A program made the position numbers and the translations under genes. Of a stretch of DNA of 37,978 nucleotides, positions 546-34,575 are shown piece after piece. The stretch comes from a virus. Position 1 is the first letter of the stretch. The number at the start of each line of letters is the position of its first letter. Where the stretch lies: UHGV virus genome UHGV-0283905; one strand, 5' to 3'. Under the pieces are notes generated by a model. The model saw only the letters and a list, made by a program, of their open reading frames with translations. It ran no database searches and had not been told where the DNA came from.

Positions 546-1195
546 TGCGCGTCCCCCTTGCGAATCTGGGCGGCGATGTCTTCGAGTACACCATCAGCGA
601 ACGAGCGATCGAAATCGCCTTCCGGCGCATCATCCATAAACTCTGTGGAGGTCAGTATCATTCGTGCGATGTCCGCAGCGTTCTTCGCTGTGTCTTCGAT
701 AAACCCAGCCTCCCATGCAGCCAGCATTCGGTTGGCAACAAAGTGAGCGCCTTCCTTGTGGGCTTGCGCCCGCACTTCAGCCAGGAAAGCATCGGTGGCT
801 GGAATGGGCTTTTGTGGTGATATAGCAATGCGAATTGTCTCAAGGTCTGGATCTGTTTCCGCTGCTGGCACCTTGATATAACCCACCTGCACCCCATTCA
901 TGATGAACCTGCGACGGTCATCACATATCGCCTTTAGCCCCGCATTCTCCGCCGCCAGCGCCGAAAACTTCTCGTGTGCCAACTTAACAGCTGCATCAGC
1001 CTGCTTAATTGACTCAATCGCTTTCTGTTGGTCTTCGGCCAGCGCATTAGCACGCACCAGTTGCACTTCCAGTTGCGTTGCCAAATCGCTGATCAGCTTT
1101 GCCACACTGCGCATATCAACGGCACCACATTCTGCTTTCAGTTCCGAAGCCATCTCATGCCCGGCGGAAACTAACCATTTGATATTACCGTCCAT
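542..1195 (-). CDS. hypothetical phage protein, coiled-coil-rich N-terminal half
   Basis: 217-aa ORF in the same operon; Ala/Glu/Lys-rich heptad-like N-terminus; no confident family. Confidence 0.5.
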   Translation of the reverse strand: MDGNIKWLVSAGHEMASELKAECGAVDMRSVAKLISDLATQLEVQLVRANALAEDQQKAIESIKQADAAVKLAHEKFSALAAENAGLKAICDDRRRFIMNGVQVGYIKVPAAETDPDLETIRIAISPQKPIPATDAFLAEVRAQAHKEGAHFVANRMLAAWEAGFIEDTAKNAADIARMILTSTEFMDDAPEGDFDRSFADGVLEDIAAQIRKGDAQ

Positions 1196-1256
1196 CTTTA
1201 CCCTCGCTTATCCACATAACTTATTGATTACATTGATAACTAAAAAGATCGTCGAT

Positions 1257-1601
1257 TCAGAACTCTTCGATGTTCCAGCCACCACCTGCTTTCTTTGGCT
1301 TAACCGTTACCCCGATGATTCGGAACGGATACTGATCTGCGGCGACTTTGGTTTTCACTCTGGCGTCATCGGTCCAGAAACCTTTCACTTCGTGTAGTTC
1401 CATCTCGCCGGTGGCGAGCATCACAGCAAAATCGGGCGTATAGAACGTGTTGTCAGCTAACCGCAGCTTGATACCCTCGAATCGATACCAGGCGATTTCC
1501 CCTGCACGTTTACGCAGCTCAAGGTGCTGGCAATACGCAGATTCTGTTTTGTTCATCTGGCCTGTTTTGAGTCGACCAAGAGCCTGTATCTGTTTTCTCA
1601 T
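1257..1601 (-). CDS. putative small PD-(D/E)XK-type nuclease (DUF1064-like)
   Basis: 114 aa; motif YTPDF...ELHEVKG resembles a D...E.K nuclease core; start codon sits 3 nt after a TTACC-N5-GGTAA site. Confidence 0.4.
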   Translation of the reverse strand: MRKQIQALGRLKTGQMNKTESAYCQHLELRKRAGEIAWYRFEGIKLRLADNTFYTPDFAVMLATGEMELHEVKGFWTDDARVKTKVAADQYPFRIIGVTVKPKKAGGGWNIEEF

Positions 1602-1718
1602 GATTTACCTCTAAGGTAATTAAAAACCACATAAGACACGAAATCAATAGAGTTTAGAATATTTTATTACCCAACAGGTAATTATCAAGGCGTAAAAAAA
1701 TGCGCTATCGCGCTGGTA

Positions 1719-2519
1719 TTACTTGATAAATCCTGCCGCCTTTCCCCGCCTGTATTCCTCCATCAGCCACTGCGCCGGTGTTATTCCCCCAAGGGTGGCG
1801 GCGTTAGGCATGCACCCGAAACTTCGCCCTGGTGGATGGTAAACGTCTCTCCCTGTGTCCGGAGGCGTACTCATGGGTTCTGGCTTTGCCTGTATGCTGA
1901 TCACCGGATCGGGTATCTGCTGTCCGGAAGCCACCTTTTTCGCCCAATCATCGAGCAGCCTGCGCGCGTGTTTCTCAACCTCTATCTCGCTAAGCTGGCG
2001 CTGATACATTGCACGGCGGGTATCACATACGACCCAGTACATAACCGGATGCCGCCACGGGAATCTTTCGGGACCACCAGGATATAAACTTTTTTCCTTG
2101 CTGTACCGGTGAAACTCCGTCATCACATCGTCAATGGTGACGCCAAGAACCATCTTGCTGTCTTTGCACCACTTGATGAATTGCCCTGGCGACGGCCAGA
2201 ACGGAGATTCACTGGCGCGGGCGTGGCGCATACCAGCAGAAACCTGTTCACGGGTTCGGATCCCCCCTTCGGCAAACGCAGCAATCCACTGCTGTTTTGC
2301 AGCAACTTCCTGCTCTGGCGTCTTCAGGTTGGTTACCACTGCCGCCGGAAACAGTTGTTTCAGCTGTTTGAAAAGGGCATCAACAAGCCTCTCTGCTGAC
2401 ATGTTCACCACGTTGTCATTGTTGGTGTACTGATGCTCATAACCTGACATGCGAGAAAGGGCTTCTCCGTCACGGTTTTGTATCGCGGTAAAAACGTTGT
2501 TCACAAGAAATCCTCCCAT
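1719..2519 (-). CDS. replication protein P-like (DnaB helicase loader)
   Basis: Segment QQWIAAFAEGGIRTREQVSAGMRHARASESPFWPSPGQFIKWC closely matches my recollection of lambda P (QWVLAFRENGITTMEQVNAGMRVARRQNRPFLPSPGQFVAWC); lies directly downstream of the O-like gene. Confidence 0.8.
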   Translation of the reverse strand: MGGFLVNNVFTAIQNRDGEALSRMSGYEHQYTNNDNVVNMSAERLVDALFKQLKQLFPAAVVTNLKTPEQEVAAKQQWIAAFAEGGIRTREQVSAGMRHARASESPFWPSPGQFIKWCKDSKMVLGVTIDDVMTEFHRYSKEKSLYPGGPERFPWRHPVMYWVVCDTRRAMYQRQLSEIEVEKHARRLLDDWAKKVASGQQIPDPVISIQAKPEPMSTPPDTGRDVYHPPGRSFGCMPNAATLGGITPAQWLMEEYRRGKAAGFIK

Positions 2520-3925: not shown

Positions 3926-3988
3926 TCACCCATAAGGTAACAAAAATCAAGGATAGTTACCTATGGGGTGCATTTACCTGTTGGGTAA
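3926..3988. promoter_or_regulatory. OR-like operator cluster: three TTACC-N5-GGTAA-type dyad sites between the divergent Cro-like and repressor genes
   Basis: TCACCcataaGGTAA 3926..3940, TTACCtatggGGTGC 3957..3971 (one half degenerate), TTACCtgttgGGTAA 3974..3988. Confidence 0.6.
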
Positions 3989-4043: not shown

Positions 4044-4628
4044 ATGAAAAGTATCCAGGACGTCCGCAGGCAAAATCTCAACGACTTGATCGACCGTGAA
4101 TTCAATGGTGTTCAGACGCGGATGGCAGAAAAACTTGGAACTCAGGCAAATCTGGTAAACCGCTGGGCTCTTGGCAAGAAGGTTATCGGCGACCAGGTTG
4201 CACGAAAAATTGAAGCTGCCGCCAATAAACCCCGTAACTGGCTTGATATTGATCGTTCGCTTTCTCAGGAGGGTTTTCAGCCTGTCGGACCAAGCGACAT
4301 TGGTCAACTGGCGGCTCACAACCTGGAACGCTGGATGAGCGAAAGCCGCGACCTTTCAACACAGGGAAAACTTCACCGCGCATCCGGCGTAGCCCAGGTG
4401 ACAATCAGCCGCCTGTTAAACAATGAGGTCAGCGTTTCCATTTCCACCCTGGAGAATGTTGCATCCGCATTCGGGCGTCATGGCTATGAATTACTGATTC
4501 ACCCGCACGACCCTGCGACCATCAACTATGATCGCTCGCGCTACGCATTGTTACCCGAAACCGAGAAAGCAAAGATCGAAAGTTACATTGAATTTGTCAT
4601 CAACCAGAACGAAAAAAGCAAACAATAA
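4044..4628 (+). CDS. candidate immunity repressor, dual HTH (XRE-type), no peptidase S24 domain
   Basis: 194 aa; two HTH-like segments (about residues 20-45 and 115-140); no recognisable Ser/Lys autocleavage motifs; occupies the cI position opposite the Cro-like gene. Confidence 0.6.
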   Translation: MKSIQDVRRQNLNDLIDREFNGVQTRMAEKLGTQANLVNRWALGKKVIGDQVARKIEAAANKPRNWLDIDRSLSQEGFQPVGPSDIGQLAAHNLERWMSESRDLSTQGKLHRASGVAQVTISRLLNNEVSVSISTLENVASAFGRHGYELLIHPHDPATINYDRSRYALLPETEKAKIESYIEFVINQNEKSKQ

Positions 4629-12146: not shown

Positions 12147-14609
12147 TCAATTCCCTGTTAATTGCAAAACTTGCTCTTCCAGCTTTTTAACCCTGCGTCT
12201 CATCATCGCAGATTCCAGAATCAGAGCCTCTTCATAACGGATACCGTAACATTCACCAGCCTCGACGGCTTCGCGTACCAGAACCTTTGTCTGTATAAGT
12301 GGGTAAACTCCTGCAGAATGCTCTTCTTCCGTCACATCCCTGTATTCTGCCGGGGTCTCATTCCACTTGTCATAACAGATAAATGCCAGTCGTGACACAT
12401 CTATGCCTTCATTCTGAAATACACTGATAACATGCTGCGCAACTGCACCAAAGTGCCATCTTGCTCCGTCTTTACCTTTCACTTCGATCCTGTCAAGGTA
12501 CTGGTATGAAACCCATTCCACTCTTTCCCATGCGTCCAGTATTTTCTCATCAATAACCTCTGGAGCAGTCTTGAAACGCGCATCGGACAGCACCGTAAAC
12601 GCTGACTGGGTAAATCCCCCCGACCATGCACGACCAGCCAACCCAAGAGAATAAGTATTCGTTGTCGATGGTGTCATGGCTGAATCAGAAAACTGTATAT
12701 ATTCTGAATTTCCAGTAGATATTCGAATATTTCCATTTATTAGCGACATAGTGCCTTTAGTATTATCACTATTGAATAATTTCAATTGCGAACTTATACC
12801 GCCTCCCACAGCCAGAGATACATCGCCTTCAGCAAGCATTCTGAATTTATCTGCAGAAACAAGCGTCTGGTTAGCAAGGTTAAAATATTTAACCCACCAT
12901 TCAAAACGCCCTGACATAGTCCCAACGTACTGACCAAGCGCAGGGACGTGAACAACATTGCTATTTGTAGTGCCGTCTATACTGGAAATACCAGTCACCG
13001 CTGATGCAGAACTCAGAATATTATTTCTGTCACCCGGATGTTTAATTTCAACAAAGTTCCTGATACACCCTTCCTCGAAGGTAACCACGCCGGAAGAACT
13101 ATACATGGGGAATATTGACGCATAATTACTGCGTGCAGCATCTAAGAAACGAATGGTTGTAGATGCCTGCAGATCTCCTGATTCATTTTTCCCATCACAC
13201 CCAGTCATTAGAATATTACTGGCAATATTATTATTTCCCTGAACGGTGACGCCGTGCGCCTGCTTTGCGTCCGATTCAGAGTAATCAACCAGCACATCCG
13301 AAATCAGGTTACCAGTCCCCTTGCCAACAACTACTGCGGCGTATTTTGGGTTGTTAGCCATTACACTGCTAATGATATTATTCGTTGGGGCAGTTTCCGT
13401 CTCAGTTCCATTGTAAACAACGTGCTGACACTCTTCACCAATAACATTGCTGACAATGTTATATTTTGCTGCTGTTTTAAGTTCCACTGCACCAAACTGA
13501 GGATAATTTCTGGCTATCACACCATCAATTAGCGTATTTTGCGATGAATCAAAAAGCACACAACCTGCTTTTTTATTATTTGCGAACCCTAAATACTCTC
13601 CTCTTATATCTCTAACAATGTAACCTGACGGAATACCATTATCCGGATAAGCGATCAAGCTAAATCCTGGTCCTCGCGTATTTGTAAATCTGATATTTTT
13701 AACCGATACATCATGGCCACCTGAAAATGACACCTGGTGTCCCTGCACACTATCATCTGATTTATTTCCCATAATTGTTAGCGTACTAAGCATGCCACCA
13801 TCGGGCATGTTAAAAACCAGATGATTACCATCTCTGTCATACTGTTTTATCGTTCCCCCACCTGTTCCGTACAAGCCACAACGTGAAAGAGAAACTAAAG
13901 ATGTATTGAATACCCCTTCCGGAACAAAAACACTGCTAAACGAATGTAATGATTTTGTAAAAGCATCCTTGTTATCATTTAAGATTCCATTTTGAGCTCC
14001 AAAATCCTTAATGCTGACACCATCACGCATCTTATCCTGGAACGTTCTGTATACCGCTCCAGAACCATACTGAATAAACCAACCAAAACCACCAATAACT
14101 CCGGCGATTGCAGCATCGACATAATTACGCATTGAGCGATTATTTACAGCGTCCTGCTCAAGTGATGGATCGGCAAGGTTAGATATTCTGTTTTGCTTTG
14201 CATCGTAATATTTTGCAAGCAAAGATGGTTTCATCAATGCACGTCTGAACCACCCAAAACATCGCTGGATCAGCATCGTCAGGTAGTCAAATGCATCCTC
14301 ATGAACTTCGGGGAAAAATTTTCCCTGATTGCGAAGATCAGTCTCCTGCACCACATCAAGCACACGCTCTATCGTGATTCGCCAGCCAGCAGCAAGCGGC
14401 GACGGAAGAACCACTGCACCGCCACTATAAGTTCCCGCCCCTGTTACCGTATAACCAGCATCCAGCACTAGTTTTGTAACGTTACCGTTAAGGTCAGACA
14501 CCTGAACAACCAGGTCGGATTTTTTGAAAATACGGAAGGTATACGGAAATGATGTCGTAACGCCGTTACCTGTGTATTCGTTGTGGTCAACTTCGGTTGA
14601 GACCGTCAT
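12147..14609 (-). CDS. tailspike / tail fibre with central beta-helix (depolymerase-like) and C-terminal S74-type intramolecular chaperone
   Basis: 820 aa; conserved N-terminal particle-binding segment; AT-richer middle with beta-helix-like repeats; C-terminal LSDARFK...RWHFGAVAQ autoproteolytic chaperone motif. Confidence 0.85.
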   Translation of the reverse strand: MTVSTEVDHNEYTGNGVTTSFPYTFRIFKKSDLVVQVSDLNGNVTKLVLDAGYTVTGAGTYSGGAVVLPSPLAAGWRITIERVLDVVQETDLRNQGKFFPEVHEDAFDYLTMLIQRCFGWFRRALMKPSLLAKYYDAKQNRISNLADPSLEQDAVNNRSMRNYVDAAIAGVIGGFGWFIQYGSGAVYRTFQDKMRDGVSIKDFGAQNGILNDNKDAFTKSLHSFSSVFVPEGVFNTSLVSLSRCGLYGTGGGTIKQYDRDGNHLVFNMPDGGMLSTLTIMGNKSDDSVQGHQVSFSGGHDVSVKNIRFTNTRGPGFSLIAYPDNGIPSGYIVRDIRGEYLGFANNKKAGCVLFDSSQNTLIDGVIARNYPQFGAVELKTAAKYNIVSNVIGEECQHVVYNGTETETAPTNNIISSVMANNPKYAAVVVGKGTGNLISDVLVDYSESDAKQAHGVTVQGNNNIASNILMTGCDGKNESGDLQASTTIRFLDAARSNYASIFPMYSSSGVVTFEEGCIRNFVEIKHPGDRNNILSSASAVTGISSIDGTTNSNVVHVPALGQYVGTMSGRFEWWVKYFNLANQTLVSADKFRMLAEGDVSLAVGGGISSQLKLFNSDNTKGTMSLINGNIRISTGNSEYIQFSDSAMTPSTTNTYSLGLAGRAWSGGFTQSAFTVLSDARFKTAPEVIDEKILDAWERVEWVSYQYLDRIEVKGKDGARWHFGAVAQHVISVFQNEGIDVSRLAFICYDKWNETPAEYRDVTEEEHSAGVYPLIQTKVLVREAVEAGECYGIRYEEALILESAMMRRRVKKLEEQVLQLTGN

Positions 14610-14713
14610 GTTAAATCTCCAGATAGTCGCAGCACCCGTTGCGCCGCATATCTGGTTATTCTATTACCCAAAAAACCATATATGGATAGAAAGACTGTGA
14701 ATATGAATAGATA

Positions 14714-14728
14714 TTACCTTTCAGGTAA
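14714..14728. promoter_or_regulatory. dyad site TTACCtttcaGGTAA upstream of the LexA-box promoter
   Basis: Exact motif; identical in sequence to the site at 33667..33681. Confidence 0.5.
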
Positions 14729-14746
14729 TTTGCAAAACGTGCTGGA

Positions 14747-14767
14747 TAGCAAACAAATTATTTGCTA
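14747..14767. promoter_or_regulatory. inverted repeat TAGCAAA-N7-TTTGCTA abutting the LexA box
   Basis: Read directly; second palindrome in the same promoter region. Confidence 0.35.
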
Positions 14768-14783
14768 CTGTATAAATATACAG
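14768..14783. promoter_or_regulatory. LexA (SOS) box CTGTATAAATATACAG
   Basis: Fits the enterobacterial CTGT-N8-ACAG consensus with AT-rich centre; 22 bp upstream of the RBS of the 85-aa gene. Confidence 0.75.
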
Positions 14784-14805
14784 TTATTGCATGGAGAAGA
14801 TTAAG

Positions 14806-15063
14806 ATGCAGCAGTATCACTATCCACTGGAAGAGGGATTTACCGAAAGGATTCACACGCCGGGAGGCGTCAGGTCACTGGTGGAGGGATCGCACTTGAT
14901 GAAATTACTCCGGGATCTCGATAAGGATGGATTTAATGTCGATGGCCCACTTGCCGAACTGACTGCACTGATTAACTACGTCACCAGCTCACAGATGTCT
15001 ATGCGGGATCTGCAAACACATCTCGACTATTGTGCCGAACAATTACGAAAACAAACCAGATAA
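14806..15063 (+). CDS. small SOS-controlled protein, candidate antirepressor (85 aa)
   Basis: ATG 14806 preferred (GGAGAAG 6 nt upstream; table start 14791); paralogous to the C-terminal domain of the Bro-N protein. Confidence 0.55.
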   Translation: MQQYHYPLEEGFTERIHTPGGVRSLVEGSHLMKLLRDLDKDGFNVDGPLAELTALINYVTSSQMSMRDLQTHLDYCAEQLRKQTR

Positions 15064-15094
15064 GGTTTGCAATTACCAAGTGGAGTGCTTATAT

Positions 15095-15109
15095 TTACCT
15101 TTGAGGTAA
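15095..15109. promoter_or_regulatory. dyad site TTACCtttgaGGTAA
   Basis: Exact motif, flanked by inverted GGAGTGC / GCACTCC. Confidence 0.45.
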
Positions 15110-15200
15110 ATTTACATCGCACTCCTCTTATGCCATAGTAATCGGGCACTGGCAAAATCCAGTGCCGGGATTGGCGTCCCGGGTTACTAAGTGGCGCATA

Positions 15201-15222
15201 CCACGCCAGACGTGGTTTTTTT
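15201..15222 (+). terminator. intrinsic terminator inside the intergenic region between the two antirepressor-locus genes
   Basis: CCACG-ccaga-CGTGG hairpin followed by TTTTTTT. Confidence 0.7.
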
Positions 15223-15351
15223 ATGCGTTAAGCACAGCTCAGCTATATCCGAATTATGGTGGGCTGGGCAGGGGTCCGAAAGGACGCCGGTACCACTTAG
15301 GCCGGTACGCCAACCTTGTCCAGTTCACCACCAGTAATTGGCGTTGCGGTG

Positions 15352-15365
15352 GTGATTAAAATCAC
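15352..15365. promoter_or_regulatory. 14-bp palindrome GTGATTAAAATCAC immediately upstream of the Bro-N gene RBS
   Basis: Perfect dyad; ACTAAGTGG direct repeats at 15186..15194 and 15364..15372. Confidence 0.4.
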
Positions 15366-15383
15366 TAAGTGGAGATAACCACC

Positions 15384-16094
15384 ATGGCTAATGCTCAAAC
15401 TGCCATCTTCAAATTTGAATCTGTTAACCCTATCCGTTCCATCATTATCGATGGCCAACCATGGTTTGTAGCCCAAGACGTTTGTAGTGCGCTGCGTATC
15501 CAAAACGTCACCCAAGCACTTGAAAAACTGGATGATGATGAAAGGTCTATGTTCAACATAGGGCATGAACATCGTGCAATTTTTGACAGCCGAGTAAAAG
15601 AGATCAACATCATCTCCGAGTCAGGCCTCTACACACTGATCCTCCGCTGCCGCGACGCAGTGACACCAGGCACTATCCCCTACCGCTTTCGCAAATGGGT
15701 TACAGGTGATGTTCTTCCTCAGATCCGTCGCACCGGAAGTTACATTAAAAACTCGCTCCCGCAGGAAGAACGCATAAAGATGGTTGCCGACCAGGTAGCC
15801 AGCGCCACAGCATCAGCAGTGATGCAGGCAATGAAGGTAGAGAACAAAACCTACAGCGCCCCACTGAAGCCCGGCTACCGCAGCCTGATTCATTCGCCGT
15901 CTGGTGTTCTTGGCCTGACGGAGAACTCACTGCTGATGAATCTGCTGAACCAGTTACAGGACGACGGGCATGACGTATCGGGCGCGGCGGCGGAGCTGAC
16001 CACCATGTTCTGCTACATCGTCGGTGTGAGCAAATGCCTGCGTGATATCCAGACGCACGCGGAGTACATCAGCGACAAAGCAGGGTTCTTCTGA
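15384..16094 (+). CDS. Bro-N domain protein (antirepressor-type) with C-terminal domain paralogous to the upstream 85-aa protein
   Basis: ATG 15384 with GGAGA RBS (table start is GTG 15369); N-terminus FKFESVNPIRSIIIDGQPWFVAQDVCSALRI fits Bro-N. Confidence 0.75.
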   Translation: MANAQTAIFKFESVNPIRSIIIDGQPWFVAQDVCSALRIQNVTQALEKLDDDERSMFNIGHEHRAIFDSRVKEINIISESGLYTLILRCRDAVTPGTIPYRFRKWVTGDVLPQIRRTGSYIKNSLPQEERIKMVADQVASATASAVMQAMKVENKTYSAPLKPGYRSLIHSPSGVLGLTENSLLMNLLNQLQDDGHDVSGAAAELTTMFCYIVGVSKCLRDIQTHAEYISDKAGFF

Positions 16095-16160
16095 CGGGCG
16101 GCGGCACAGGGATGTGCCTTTAAAATAATCATTGGCGATGTGATGTAGATTCGCGTAATA

Positions 16161-16175
16161 TTACCTTAAAGGTAA
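16161..16175. promoter_or_regulatory. dyad site TTACCttaaaGGTAA overlapping the RBS region of the 55-aa gene
   Basis: Exact motif, followed directly by AGGAGG and ATG 16188. Confidence 0.5.
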
Positions 16176-16187
16176 AGGAGGCGCGAT

Positions 16188-16355
16188 ATGACAGCGTTGA
16201 AAAATCGTACTCAGCACAATGAACAAGCCAAGCAATGCTGGGATGTCATTGGAAAAGTTATGCTTGGTCGCGCAAGCAAAGAGCGCGACAAGGATATGGT
16301 TTACCAGACAGGAACATCTTTTAGCGACTTCAAGGCGGCATTTCGCTCCAAATAG
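16188..16355 (+). CDS. small hypothetical protein (55 aa); not in the ORF track
   Basis: ATG 16188 with AGGAGG RBS; translation MTALKNRTQHNEQAKQCWDVIGKVMLGRASKERDKDMVYQTGTSFSDFKAAFRSK; stop TAG 16353..16355. Confidence 0.4.
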   Translation: MTALKNRTQHNEQAKQCWDVIGKVMLGRASKERDKDMVYQTGTSFSDFKAAFRSK

Positions 16356-16375
16356 AAGCACATCAGGAGTTTTCC

Positions 16376-16819
16376 TTGAAGTTTAACATTAGAATATCTA
16401 ATAGTTTTCTACATGGGGAAAGCAACACCCCTTTCGCTGTAGACGGACCTTTCCTTACTGATGATGAAATAAAAATCATACAAAGGTTTTTAGAGGATGT
16501 TGCCAATGGAAGGGCGCTTGTTGGAAAAAACAAGCCATCGTGGGTTGATGATAACCATGATAAAATTCCCGGCTCAGACAATTATGAGCAAGAGAATTAT
16601 TGGCATTATCATTGTGGGCCAACATGGTATCCAAACACATTTAAGAATTATACCATTAACTTAAATTTCAACCCTGGCGGAATGCATTCTAATGAATGCA
16701 TTCATTATGCAAAAAATGATAATGAAATTGTCATTGTTGGATTTTCAAGAGAACACATACCTTTCCTTTCATCAGATGGAAACAACAATCCGCTTTTTAA
16801 TGATGAAGAAGAAGAATAA
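16376..16819 (+). CDS. AT-rich acidic hypothetical protein (moron), 147 aa, TTG start
   Basis: Markedly lower GC than neighbours by eye; CAGGAG 6 nt before TTG; about 23 Asp/Glu vs about 11 Lys/Arg; C-terminal NDEEEE; followed by a strong terminator. Confidence 0.5.
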   Translation: MKFNIRISNSFLHGESNTPFAVDGPFLTDDEIKIIQRFLEDVANGRALVGKNKPSWVDDNHDKIPGSDNYEQENYWHYHCGPTWYPNTFKNYTINLNFNPGGMHSNECIHYAKNDNEIVIVGFSREHIPFLSSDGNNNPLFNDEEEE

Positions 16820-34003: not shown

Positions 34004-34080
34004 GTGGCATTAGCTCAGTTGGACAGAGCAACCGCCTTCTAAGCGGTTGGTCGCAGGTTCGAATCCTGCATGCCACGCCA
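34004..34080 (+). tRNA. tRNA-Arg (anticodon UCU), CCA encoded
   Basis: Hand-folded cloverleaf: acceptor GTGGCAT/ATGCCAC, D-arm GCTC-AGTTGGACA-GAGC, anticodon arm ACCGC-CTTCTAA-GCGGT, T-arm GCAGG-TTCGAAT-CCTGC, discriminator G, CCA. Confidence 0.85.
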
Positions 34081-34165: not shown

Positions 34166-34243
34166 ACAGCAGGACGCCATTGCGATGACTTCATGCTGTA
34201 AACCAGTACAGCCACGGAAGGCATAACTCATTGCTTCCAGTTC

Positions 34244-34278: not shown

Positions 34279-34575
34279 ATGAGCGAAACATCAACAGTAT
34301 CTTTCTCCACTGCTTTGTCATCACTCAAAGATGGTAAGCGCATTGCACGTGCCGGATGGAATGGCAAAGGCATGTATCTGCAACTGGTTAAGCCACCGCA
34401 ATCGGCCACTCCGAACGAGTGGCGATTTGACGTTACATGCGGTGACGAGTATACATTTGTACCTGGCGTTAAACTTCTACCGTGGATTGGGATGAAAACT
34501 GCTGACGGTTGCTTTGTACCGTGGCTGGCATCTCAAACCGATCTGCTATCTGATGACTGGATTGTAATTCAATAA
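34279..34575 (+). CDS. DUF2829-family protein (Tad2-like, candidate anti-Thoeris sponge)
   Basis: 98 aa; N-terminal FSTALSSLKDGKRIARAGWNGKGMYLQL and C-terminal VPWLASQTDLLSDDWIVI fit my recollection of the DUF2829 pattern; opposite orientation to flanking structural genes, own terminator. Confidence 0.55.
   Translation: MSETSTVSFSTALSSLKDGKRIARAGWNGKGMYLQLVKPPQSATPNEWRFDVTCGDEYTFVPGVKLLPWIGMKTADGCFVPWLASQTDLLSDDWIVIQ

What the first reader, a model, noticed from the sequence alone, without database searches (positions are those of the whole stretch)
14714..16122. SOS-controlled antirepressor locus with a free-standing and a Bro-N-fused copy of the same domain
A near-consensus LexA box (CTGTATAAATATACAG, 14768..14783) sits 22 bp upstream of the RBS of an 85-aa protein (14806..15063). 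That protein aligns at roughly 40% identity, by eye, with the C-terminal 75 residues of the downstream Bro-N protein (shared LM.LL..L..DG..V.G..AELT...RD.QTH..Y). Between the two genes lies about 300 bp with consecutive hairpins ending in a strong terminator (15201..15222), so a roughly 100-nt structured RNA may be encoded at about 15125..15222, and a 14-bp palindrome GTGATTAAAATCAC abuts the Bro-N RBS. The candidate repressor (4044..4628) has no LexA-like autocleavage domain. Together this predicts induction through a LexA-derepressed antirepressor, with the shared domain as the repressor-binding module. The paralogous pair plus an intervening RNA is not an arrangement I recognise.
Basis: partly seen in the sequence, partly recalled or inferred. 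Interest (0 to 1): 0.75.

Follow-up and report, generated by a model that had tools for sequence, protein, structure and literature searches.

The report
Two antirepressors: SOS-controlled and RNA-controlled
This E. coli prophage carries the already-characterised LexA-controlled small antirepressor of epsilon15-like phages, followed by a known type of small-RNA-controlled antirepressor whose C-terminal domain is a diverged copy of that small protein; it recombines known parts and is not a new kind of system.

Summary
Nearly all of it maps onto described systems.

- **Small antirepressor.** The 85-aa protein (14806..15063) is the orthologue of Ant of Salmonella phage SPC32H (PDB 5D50 chain E, E=5.6e-47, about 88% identity).
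- **Repressor.** The 194-aa protein (4044..4628) is the orthologue of its partner Rep (5D50 chain A). It has HTH domains only and no S24 hit.
- **LexA box.** It matches 18 of 20 consensus positions, is unique in the window, and sits at the same place in SPC32H.
- **Intervening RNA.** It is two Rfam families in tandem: isrK (15146..15222) and C4 antisense RNA (15252..15335). The two C4 single-stranded segments pair with a site pair inside isrK and with a second pair that covers the Shine-Dalgarno sequence of the Bro-N gene. These sites co-vary across 12 loci. This is the P1 c4 / Gifsy-1 isrK layout.
- **Shared domain.** The Bro-N C-terminal domain is a true Ant paralogue (41% identity, E=1e-16). 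It occurs only in phages that encode a Rep homologue, fused to Bro-N, AntA or (by annotation only) ORF6N heads.
TTACC-N5-GGTAA palindromes, probably Rep operators, lie at all three promoter regions of the locus.

What seems undescribed in the literature I could read is the pairing of a free-standing and a fused Ant domain. Novelty is modest.

The parts
14714..14728 (.). Probable Rep operator (TTACCTTTCAGGTAA) upstream of ant, directly abutting a TTGCAA hexamer (14730..14735)
   Evidence: The TTACC-N5-GGTAA family has 15 sites with at most 1 mismatch in the window against 0.57 expected. SPC32H has 18 against 0.67, including 3 in the rep-cro intergenic region and one upstream of ant. The half-sites are invariant in all 6 aligned ant upstream regions.
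14766..14785 (+). LexA (SOS) box TACTGTATAAATATACAGTT
   Evidence: It matches 18 of 20 consensus positions and is unique in the window, with 0.00 expected. A CTGT-N8-ACAG box is present at the same place in phiV10, SPC32H, phiv142-3 and Tyrion.
14806..15063 (+). ant: 85-aa small antirepressor, orthologue of SPC32H Ant
   Evidence: PDB 5D50_E 'Anti-repressor protein', E=5.6e-47. tblastn gives 88% identity to SPC32H 'ant'. It matches phrog_450.
15067..15095 (+). Upstream promoter-like site TTGCAA-17-TATATT; its -10 hexamer runs into the operator
   Evidence: Consensus scan. A -35-like and a -10-like hexamer are kept in 7 related loci. Function is inferred.
15095..15109 (.). Probable Rep operator (TTACCTTTGAGGTAA) between two tandem promoter-like sites of the isrK-C4-ant2 unit
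   Evidence: The half-sites are invariant in 7 loci while the central 5 nt vary.
15111..15139 (+). Second promoter-like site TTTACA-17-CATAGT (TG-extended); the implied transcription start fits the isrK 5' end
   Evidence: It is almost invariant in 7 loci. Function is inferred.
15146..15222 (+). isrK-type small RNA carrying the a1 (TTGGCGT 15171..15177) and b1 (CTAAGTGG 15187..15194) C4 target sites and ending in an intrinsic terminator (stem 15200..15216 plus T-run)
   Evidence: Rfam RF01394, 67.7 bits against a gathering score of 50. Terminator. Complementarity to C4. Covariation.
15252..15335 (+). C4 antisense RNA; hairpin-2 loop CCACTTAG (15293..15300) and junction ACGCCAA (15307..15313) are the antisense segments
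   Evidence: Rfam RF01695, 66 bits against a gathering score of 45..
15338..15373 (+). C4 target pair a2 (TTGGCGT 15338..15344) and b2 (CTAAGTGG 15365..15372); b2 overlaps the SD GGAG (15370..15373) of ant2. The non-conserved palindrome 15352..15365 lies between them.
   Evidence: Exact complementarity. In the other 11 loci the b2 site changes with the C4 loop.
15384..16094 (+). ant2: 236-aa modular antirepressor with a Bro-N domain (aa 17-112) and an Ant-like C-terminal domain (aa 155-232; nt 15846..16079)
   Evidence: Pfam Bro-N E=2.6e-19. The C-terminal domain matches Ant at 41% identity, E=1e-16, and 5D50_E at E=1.2e-13. It matches phrog_130 'anti-repressor Ant' and phrog_450.
16161..16175 (.). 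Third probable Rep operator (TTACCTTAAAGGTAA), preceded by TAATAT and abutting the SD of a 55-aa ORF (16188..16355)
   Evidence: It is conserved in phiv142-3 and TL-2011b.
4044..4628 (+). rep: 194-aa prophage repressor, orthologue of SPC32H Rep and the presumed target of both antirepressors
   Evidence: 5D50_A 'Repressor' E=3.5e-42. HTH domains only, no S24. Operator-like palindromes flank it at 3926, 3974, 4686 and 4748.

Best explanation
The locus is a composite of two known kinds of antirepressor module in an epsilon15/phiV10-like (Uetakevirus) E. coli prophage.

Module 1 is the SPC32H-type switch. LexA holds the ant promoter closed. DNA damage removes LexA, and the 85-aa Ant is made. Ant binds Rep and disassembles the DNA-bound Rep tetramer, which induces the prophage.

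Module 2 is an immI-type unit of the P1 c4 / Gifsy-1 isrK kind. Its transcript begins with the isrK leader, which carries decoy sites a1/b1 and mostly stops at the isrK terminator. Read-through RNA carries the C4 antisense RNA and then ant2. C4 pairs with a2/b2 across the ant2 Shine-Dalgarno sequence and blocks translation. Short IsrK can pair with the same C4 segments and relieve the block.

Ant2 is a modular protein. Its exchangeable N-terminal head is Bro-N here. Its C-terminal domain is a paralogue of Ant and most likely binds Rep.

Probable Rep operators sit at both antirepressor promoter regions. I therefore infer that loss of Rep, triggered by Ant, also changes transcription of module 2. 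That would make Ant2 a second, RNA-gated layer, either a feed-forward commitment step or an anti-immunity function.

Shown here: the orthology, the RNA family membership, the co-varying base-pairing and the operator-like palindrome family.

Inferred: LexA binding, Ant2-Rep binding, the direction of the Rep effect on the isrK promoters, and the activating role of IsrK.
For: - Ant and Rep orthology to the crystallised SPC32H pair.
- Same position as in SPC32H, next to the divergent tailspike gene.
- LexA box unique in the window and conserved in position.
- No S24 domain in Rep.
- isrK and C4 both above the Rfam gathering scores.
- C4 loop and junction exactly complementary to a1/b1 in isrK and to a2/b2 at the ant2 SD.
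- Covariation: 11 loci with a regex-defined loop show 8 loop sequences. The longest complementary run between cognate or same-loop pairs averages 7.4 nt (isrK) and 8.1 nt (downstream), against 4.1 and 4.5 nt for non-cognate pairs. The apparent exceptions are G-U-compatible..
- Gifsy-1 has the same isrK-C4-antirepressor order. There IsrK in trans raises anrP translation 139-fold (PMC4825925).
- The Ant-like C-terminal domain is kept while the head is Bro-N or AntA. Some E. coli prophages are annotated with an ORF6N head.
- Rep, Ant and the Ant-like domain occur in the same 32-36 phage records.
- Operator-like palindromes are 26-fold enriched and lie in the rep-cro region of SPC32H.
Against: - Nothing here shows protein binding. 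Ant2 shares only about 41% identity with Ant, so it may not bind the same Rep surface.
- The Salmonella members (SPC32H, epsilon15) lack module 2 entirely, so it is dispensable for SOS induction.
- The phiV10 reference copy is frameshifted.
- The operator at 15095..15109 abuts the -35 of the promoter that fits the isrK 5' end, centred near -44. A regulator at that position could activate instead of repress. Gifsy-1 IsrK and STnc1160 are reported as highly expressed in lysogens (PMC7067206).
- The minimum-free-energy fold of the read-through RNA pairs isrK a1/b1 with C4 in cis and leaves the SD open. The on/off logic is therefore unresolved.
- The primary SPC32H papers could not be read.
Confidence: 0.75

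Rival explanations
1. Ant2 is an outward-facing weapon and not part of the prophage's own induction circuit. It would be made on infection or after induction to inactivate the Rep of resident related prophages, as an anti-immunity or cross-induction function. The variable C4 loop would provide a second immunity specificity, as between P1 and P7.
For: - The C4 loop and its targets have at least 8 specificities in 11 loci, changing in concert, which looks like diversifying immunity types.
- The original phiV10 record (DQ126339.2) annotates the gene 'putative anti-immunity protein'.
- Trans-acting antirepressors that hit non-cognate repressors are documented in Salmonella (PMC3121763).
- Module 2 is absent from Salmonella relatives, which still have the SOS switch.
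Against: - Among E. coli phages whose Rep is 99-100% identical, the Ant2 C-terminal domain is also 91-98% identical. Nothing suggests it targets a different Rep.
- Probable operators for the phage's own Rep sit at its promoter region.
- This rival is compatible with the best explanation rather than exclusive of it.
Confidence: 0.3
2. The Ant-like domain of Ant2 acts on Ant and not on Rep. Ant works as a tetramer, so a paralogous domain could co-assemble with it and buffer or tune antirepressor activity, as an anti-antirepressor or threshold setter.
For: - Ant is reported to be a tetramer (PMC9638917).
- 19 positions are invariant between free and fused copies, which could be oligomerisation residues just as well as Rep contacts.
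- Natural free-standing chimeras between the two paralogue types exist, so the halves are structurally compatible.
Against: - There is no direct evidence.
- Proteins with this head-plus-tail architecture are generally annotated and, where tested, act as antirepressors (AnrP in Gifsy-1, PMC4825925).
- Controlling a buffer with an antisense RNA that blocks its synthesis in the lysogen makes less sense than controlling an antirepressor that way.
Confidence: 0.07
3. Module 2 is a horizontally acquired passenger that is decaying and has no role in this prophage.
For: - It is absent in SPC32H and epsilon15.
- It is frameshifted in phiV10.
- In TL-2011b it is separated from ant by an insertion.
- The isrK-C4 cassette is widespread and mobile, with 207 phage records.
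Against: - It is intact here and in TL-2011b, phiv142-3, Tyrion and the Klebsiella phages.
- 210 complete E. coli genomes carry at least 80% of the locus.
- The RNA-target complementarity is maintained by concerted changes.
- The C-terminal domain matches the phage's own Ant/Rep system, not a foreign one.
Confidence: 0.08

Closest known systems
Salmonella phage SPC32H Rep-Ant switch (Kim & Ryu 2013, J Virol 87:11775; Kim et al. 2016, PNAS 113:E2480; PDB 5D50/5D4Z)
   Same: - Ant is orthologous (about 88% identity; E=5.6e-47).
- Rep is orthologous (about 43% identity; E=3.5e-42).
- A LexA box sits at the same place upstream of ant.
- The same gene neighbourhood next to the tailspike.
- The same operator-like palindrome family.
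   Different: SPC32H has ant alone. It has no isrK, no C4 and no second antirepressor (Rfam scan; annotated region). Rep is much more diverged than Ant.
Gifsy-1 isrK-orf45(STnc1160)-anrP locus (Hershko-Shalev et al. 2016, PMC4825925)
   Same: - The same order: isrK with terminator, then C4-family RNA, then a modular antirepressor whose SD overlaps the C4 target.
- The same prophage also has a separate LexA-controlled small antirepressor (PMC3121763).
   Different: - AnrP has an ORF6N head and an unrelated tail.
- No similarity was detected between the candidate small Gifsy ORFs and AnrP.
- A coupled leader ORF (orf45) is proposed in Gifsy-1, but no conserved one is evident here.
- The two modules are about 3 kb apart in Gifsy-1 and adjacent here.
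Phage P1/P7 immI operon (c4-icd-ant; Citron & Schuster 1990, as cited in PMC7313666)
   Same: An antisense C4 RNA is co-transcribed upstream of the antirepressor gene. Two short antisense segments pair with a target pair upstream (a1/b1) and a target pair downstream (a2/b2) that covers a ribosome-binding site.
   Different: - There is no icd-like leader gene here; b2 covers the SD of the antirepressor gene itself.
- The a1/b1 leader ends in a terminator and so can exist as a separate small RNA (isrK type).
- The antirepressor protein is unrelated to P1 Ant.
Phage N15: LexA-controlled antC plus the separate immA locus (icd, antA, antB)
   Same: One phage has both an SOS-controlled antirepressor and a second anti-immunity locus (PMC4488713; PMC3121763).
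   Different: The loci are separate in N15. No shared domain between the two antirepressors is reported, the proteins are unrelated to Ant, and I did not analyse N15 sequence here.
APSE phages of Hamiltonella: isrK + C4 next to a Bro-N protein (PMC7313666)
   Same: isrK and C4 RNAs with C4 complementarity to the upstream region of an adjacent Bro-N gene.
   Different: No SPC32H-type Ant or Rep is reported there, and I did not examine the sequences.

Membership tests
SPC32H-type small antirepressor Ant | Sequence homology to the crystallised Ant (5D50 chain E) over its full length | tested here: met
   E=5.6e-47 over residues 2-84; 88% identity by tblastn.
SPC32H-type small antirepressor Ant | A cognate Rep homologue without an autocleavage domain encoded in the same genome | tested here: met
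   The 4044..4628 product matches 5D50_A at E=3.5e-42. It has only HTH Pfam hits. Rep and Ant co-occur in the same phage records.
SPC32H-type small antirepressor Ant | A LexA box at the ant promoter | tested here: met
   18 of 20 consensus positions, unique in the window; same position in the SPC32H alignment. The promoter hexamers themselves could not be assigned with confidence.
SPC32H-type small antirepressor Ant | LexA binding, SOS induction of Ant, and Ant-Rep complex formation | not testable with these tools
   Needs EMSA, reporter and pull-down experiments.
SPC32H-type Ant domain (for the Bro-N C-terminus) | Homology of residues 155-232 to Ant | tested here: met
   BLASTP E=1e-16; 5D50_E E=1.2e-13; phrog_450 E=1.1e-35.
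SPC32H-type Ant domain (for the Bro-N C-terminus) | The same fold and the same Rep-binding activity | tested here: inconclusive
   The AlphaFold2 model had a mean pLDDT of 39.9 and was unusable, so no fold search was run. Binding is not testable here.
C4 antisense RNA (Rfam RF01695) | A covariance-model match above the gathering score | tested here: met
   66 bits against 45, full length 1-87.
C4 antisense RNA (Rfam RF01695) | Two antisense segments complementary to an upstream and a downstream target pair, with the downstream pair at a ribosome-binding site of an antirepressor operon | tested here: met
   Exact 7- and 8-nt matches at 15171/15187 and 15338/15365. Concerted changes across 12 loci.
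C4 antisense RNA (Rfam RF01695) | Processing from the precursor transcript and translational repression in vivo | not testable with these tools
   Needs Northern blots or RNA-seq and reporter fusions.
isrK / c4-a1b1 leader RNA (Rfam RF01394, RF03163) | A covariance-model match above the gathering score, ending in an intrinsic terminator and located upstream of C4 | tested here: met
   67.7 bits against 50; terminator. RF03163 overlaps isrK in VT2-Sakai and Gifsy-1. RF03163 itself did not reach its threshold in the window.
P1-type immI operon (c4-icd-ant) | An icd-like leader ORF between c4 and ant whose translation is the direct target of C4 | tested here: not met
   Only 48 nt separate C4 from the ant2 ATG, and b2 overlaps the ant2 SD itself. 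ORFs overlapping the RNAs are not conserved in Tyrion or the Klebsiella locus.
Bro-N domain proteins (Pfam PF02498) | A Pfam match above the gathering score | tested here: met
   70.1 bits against 25.6, residues 17-112.
LexA/CI-type self-cleaving repressors | A Peptidase_S24 C-terminal domain in the prophage repressor | tested here: not met
   No S24 hit at E<=0.01. This is consistent with antirepressor-dependent induction.

The most novel reading that the evidence does not exclude
The two antirepressors form a two-stage, feed-forward induction switch on a single repressor.

1. SOS releases the small Ant.
2. Ant removes Rep from the operator between the isrK promoters.
3. The burst of terminated IsrK titrates C4.
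4. The Bro-N::Ant-like fusion is then translated and locks Rep off.

The hypervariable C4 loop would add a second, RNA-encoded immunity specificity among otherwise homoimmune Uetakevirus prophages. The fused domain would have arisen by duplication of ant onto a mobile isrK-C4-'head' cassette, and the two copies would still exchange segments.
Probability: 0.3. Interest if true: 0.5.

Novelty: new variant of a known kind. Interest (0 to 1): 0.3.

Why it matters
About one in ten complete E. coli genomes carries at least part of this locus (534 of 5426; 210 carry at least 80% of it). Its induction logic is therefore relevant to prophage activation in a major pathogen.

The structurally solved SPC32H Rep-Ant system describes only half of what the E. 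coli, Enterobacter and Klebsiella relatives carry. They add an RNA-gated second antirepressor built on the same Rep-specific domain.

This gives a tractable case for three questions. Why do phages keep two inputs on one repressor? How does the isrK/C4 pair set a translation threshold? How do antirepressor 'tails' get matched to repressors by domain shuffling?

It is not a new principle. Each component, and even the coexistence of an SOS-controlled and an RNA-controlled antirepressor, has precedent in Gifsy-1 and N15.

Tried and rejected
1. **Generality of the paralogue pair.** In Gifsy-1 (L013) neither candidate small ORF resembles the AnrP tail. STM2621.1n lies next to the dinI homologue and the only AT-rich LexA-like box; STM2589.1n lies by the tail fibre. 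BLASTP found no alignment or gave E=8.2. The free-plus-fused pairing therefore looks specific to the Rep/Ant family. I am not certain which Gifsy ORF is the published antirepressor.
2. **The 14-bp palindrome as an operator.** Rejected. It is not conserved in the relatives.
3. **An icd/orf45-like leader ORF.** None is conserved.
4. **Structure of Ant2.** The AlphaFold2 model had a mean pLDDT of 39.9 and pTM of 0.28, too poor for a fold search, so none was run.
5. **RNAduplex on whole regions.** It gave unrealistically long duplexes and was replaced by an exact-complement search.
6. **Reading the two primary SPC32H papers.** Six look-ups failed. The published Rep operator, the mapped ant promoter and the list of 'Ant homologues' could not be checked, so the authors may already have noted the fused homologues.
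7. **Assigning the ant promoter hexamers.** Two weak alternatives exist: TTGCAA-17-ACAAAT and TGGATA-17-TACTGT. Neither was found by the scan.
8. **Simple deletion by recombination as the origin of the chimeric 84-aa Ant variants.** Not supported, because a DUF1902 gene that lies between ant and isrK in a Klebsiella relative is retained downstream of the chimeras.
Full report
**What the window is.** The region 14600..16400 is 97% identical to Escherichia phage HEMP4 and 91-94% identical to phiV10, TL-2011b and other Uetakevirus (epsilon15-like) phages. The finding's interval is 100% identical to a chromosomal prophage of E. coli ECSC054. Parts of it occur in 534 of 5426 complete E. coli genomes, and 210 of these carry at least 80% of it.

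**Checking the observation.**
- The LexA box, the 85-aa ORF, the Bro-N ORF, the terminator and the 14-bp palindrome are all present.
- The 20-mer TACTGTATAAATATACAGTT (14766..14785) matches the E. coli SOS-box consensus at 18 of 20 positions. It is the only such site in the window, with 0.00 expected.
- The box lies 22 nt from the start codon and 9 nt from the SD, a small correction to the finding.
- The 85-aa protein aligns with residues 155-232 of the Bro-N protein at 41% identity over 78 residues, E=1e-16.
- The 194-aa candidate repressor has only HTH-type Pfam domains.

**The protein pair is already known.**
- The 85-aa protein matches PDB 5D50 chain E, 'Anti-repressor protein', at E=5.6e-47.
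- The 194-aa protein matches 5D50 chain A, 'Repressor', at E=3.5e-42.
- These are Ant and Rep of Salmonella phage SPC32H, annotated as such in KC911856.
- According to papers I could read, the Kim & Ryu (2013) system belongs to the class in which LexA self-cleavage lets an antirepressor be made that inhibits the repressor by protein-protein contact (PMC7380047).
- Rep binds DNA as a tetramer. [quoted passage not shown] It does so through the Rep C-terminal tetramerisation domain (PMC9986798).
- The ant upstream region aligns across six phages, with the LexA box core conserved in five of them.
- The primary papers are not in the library.

**The 'intervening RNA' is two known RNAs.** Rfam places isrK (RF01394) at 15146..15222 with 67.7 bits against a gathering score of 50. 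It places C4 antisense RNA (RF01695) at 15252..15335 with 66 bits against 45.

The two single-stranded segments of C4 are the loop CCACTTAG (15293..15300) and the junction ACGCCAA (15307..15313). They are exactly complementary to two site pairs:
- TTGGCGT and CTAAGTGG inside isrK (15171..15177 and 15187..15194);
- the same two words downstream of C4 (15338..15344 and 15365..15372). The second of these overlaps the SD GGAG of the Bro-N gene.

This is the a1/b1 - c4 - a2/b2 design of phage P1/P7 (Citron & Schuster 1990, as summarised in PMC7313666). Rfam even has a 'c4-a1b1' family that overlaps isrK in VT2-Sakai and Gifsy-1.

**Covariation supports the pairing.** I collected 12 loci with isrK + C4:
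- the window, phiV10, phiv142-3 and TL-2011b;
- Enterobacter phage Tyrion and two Klebsiella prophages;
- Hafnia yong2, Yersinia vB_YpM_41, Salmonella 118970_sal3, VT2-Sakai and Gifsy-1.

In 11 of these loci the C4 hairpin loop could be delimited, and it has 8 different sequences. The b1 and b2 sites change with it. The junction variant AGACCAA is matched by TTGGTCT at both target sites. The longest complementary run for cognate or same-loop pairs averages 7.4 nt (isrK) and 8.1 nt (downstream), against 4.1 and 4.5 nt for non-cognate pairs. The three apparent exceptions are G-U-compatible single changes. The Gifsy-1 loop, checked by eye, also matches both of its targets.

Gifsy-1 has the same gene order: isrK, C4, then the antirepressor anrP. 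There IsrK supplied in trans raised anrP translation 139-fold, and a processed RNA from the C4 region (STnc1160) was detected (PMC4825925).

Unlike P1 (icd) and Gifsy-1 (orf45), no conserved leader ORF is evident here.

**The second antirepressor is modular.**
- In every Rep/Ant-type phage that has the RNA cassette, the downstream protein ends in an Ant-like domain with 38-43% identity to Ant. These are TL-2011b, phiv142-3, Tyrion and the Klebsiella phages.
- The head varies. It is Bro-N in most and AntA in phiv142-3. Some E. coli prophages are annotated with an ORF6N head.
- In phages with other repressors, the C4-controlled proteins have other tails. VT2-Sakai has ORF6N + P22_AR_C, 118970_sal3 has pRha, and Gifsy-1 has ORF6N.
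- Rep (36 records), Ant (35) and the Ant-like tail (32) occur in the same set of phage records.
- Identity to the window falls in the same order for Rep and for the tail. For Rep, Ant and tail respectively it is about 99/97/96% in E. coli phages, 78/84/76% in Tyrion and 45/65/54% in Klebsiella phages.
- The family is small and restricted to Enterobacteriaceae, with 281 clusters.
- SPC32H and epsilon15 lack the cassette. The phiV10 reference copy is frameshifted.
Binding has not been shown.

The palindrome TTACC-N5-GGTAA occurs 15 times with at most 1 mismatch in the window, against 0.57 expected. It occurs 18 times in SPC32H against 0.67 expected.

In SPC32H three copies fill the rep-cro intergenic region and three follow rep. 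In the window, copies flank rep at 3926, 3974, 4686 and 4748. Others lie at the heads of operons. I take these to be Rep operators; this is an inference.

Three copies lie in the locus:
- 14714..14728, abutting a TTGCAA hexamer upstream of ant. Its half-sites are invariant in six phages, SPC32H included.
- 15095..15109, between two tandem promoter-like sites. The second, TTTACA-17-CATAGT, would start transcription at the isrK 5' end. The operator and both sites are conserved in seven loci.
- 16161..16175, abutting the SD of a 55-aa ORF.

Both antirepressor genes thus appear to belong to the Rep regulon. The operator abuts the -35 of the isrK promoter, near -44, and overlaps the -10/+1 of the upstream promoter. 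I cannot say whether Rep represses, activates, or does both.

**Mechanism proposed.**
1. SOS removes LexA, so Ant is made.
2. Ant takes the Rep tetramers off the DNA, and lytic genes are expressed.
3. Transcription of the isrK-C4-ant2 unit changes as well.
4. Most transcripts stop at the isrK terminator and yield IsrK, which carries decoys for C4.
5. Read-through yields C4 and ant2 mRNA. C4 masks the ant2 SD.
6. The IsrK:C4 ratio sets whether Ant2 is translated.

Steps after Ant-Rep are inferred from P1 and Gifsy-1. No terminator was detected between ant and isrK, so LexA-controlled transcription may also read into the cassette.

The predicted fold of the read-through RNA is unusually stable (z=-5.6). 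It pairs isrK with C4 in cis, much like 'structure A' of the Gifsy-1 study. The consequence for translation cannot be deduced here.

**Comparison and novelty.**
- Module 1 is an orthologue of a published, crystallised system.
- Module 2 belongs to a published class (P1 immI, the Gifsy-1 isrK locus, and APSE phages with isrK + C4 + Bro-N).
- Having both an SOS-controlled and an RNA-controlled antirepressor in one phage has precedent in Gifsy-1 (PMC3121763, PMC4825925) and N15 (PMC4488713).
- What I did not find described is that the tail of the RNA-controlled protein is a paralogue of the SOS-controlled Ant, with the two genes adjacent. In Gifsy-1 I found no such paralogy.
- I rate it a new variant of a known kind, with modest interest.

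Noticed in passing
window 34279..34575 (+): A 98-aa ORF with a Pfam Tad2-like (Thoeris anti-defence 2-like) domain, E=3.1e-24. A CTGT-N8-ACAG word (CTGTAAACCAGTACAG, 34196..34211) lies 68 nt upstream. It is less AT-rich than a typical SOS box, and no CTGT-N8-ACAG word lies at the corresponding place in SPC32H.
   Followed up: partly
window 1605, 1667, 3589, 3926, 3974, 4686, 4748, 10002, 33667, 36752 (15-bp sites): Further copies of the TTACC-N5-GGTAA palindrome lie in intergenic regions across the genome: around rep, ahead of the replication genes, and next to the integrase gene. Several are placed right after a -10-like hexamer or a TTGACA-17 spacing. This suggests a dispersed Rep regulon, like that of P1 C1.
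   Followed up: partly
window 16188..16355 and 16376..16819 (+): Two ORFs of unknown function (phrog_8607, 55 aa; phrog_5954, 147 aa) lie downstream of ant2, behind a probable Rep operator that abuts the SD. In TL-2011b the same operator precedes a YafO-type toxin cassette instead.
   Followed up: partly
L001 (phiV10, NC_007804.2) 4223..4428: The reference phiV10 Bro-N gene is split by a frameshift inside the Ant-like domain. The remainder (DDGHDVSGAAAELTT...KAGFF) reads on in another frame and is annotated as a separate 29-aa ORF.
   Followed up: yes
P0056, P0058, P0079; loci L014, L015: These free-standing 84-aa proteins have an N-terminal half of the Ant type and a C-terminal half of the fused (Ant2) type. 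Their contigs lack isrK, C4 and a Bro-N gene but keep a DUF1902 gene. This suggests sequence exchange between the two paralogues.
   Followed up: partly
window 15348..15355 vs 15325..15332: GGTGGTGA immediately downstream of C4 is complementary to the 3' arm of the C4 closing stem (TCACCACC) and is present in all 12 loci examined. It could form an alternative helix in the unprocessed precursor.
   Followed up: no
window 12147..14609 (-): The 820-aa tailspike has a beta-helix region and a C-terminal Peptidase_S74 (endosialidase-type intramolecular chaperone) domain. Its N-terminus is shared with relatives, but the rest differs from phiV10.
   Followed up: no
window 34004..34077 (+): A tRNA gene (Rfam 73.3 bits; anticodon loop CUUCUAA, i.e. 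UCU, Arg), matching the tRNA-Arg annotated in SPC32H.
   Followed up: no
L012 (TL-2011b) 1167..2255: About 0.9 kb is inserted between ant and the isrK promoter region in TL-2011b, so the two antirepressor modules are separable units. The operator-promoter-isrK block is intact after the insertion.
   Followed up: partly
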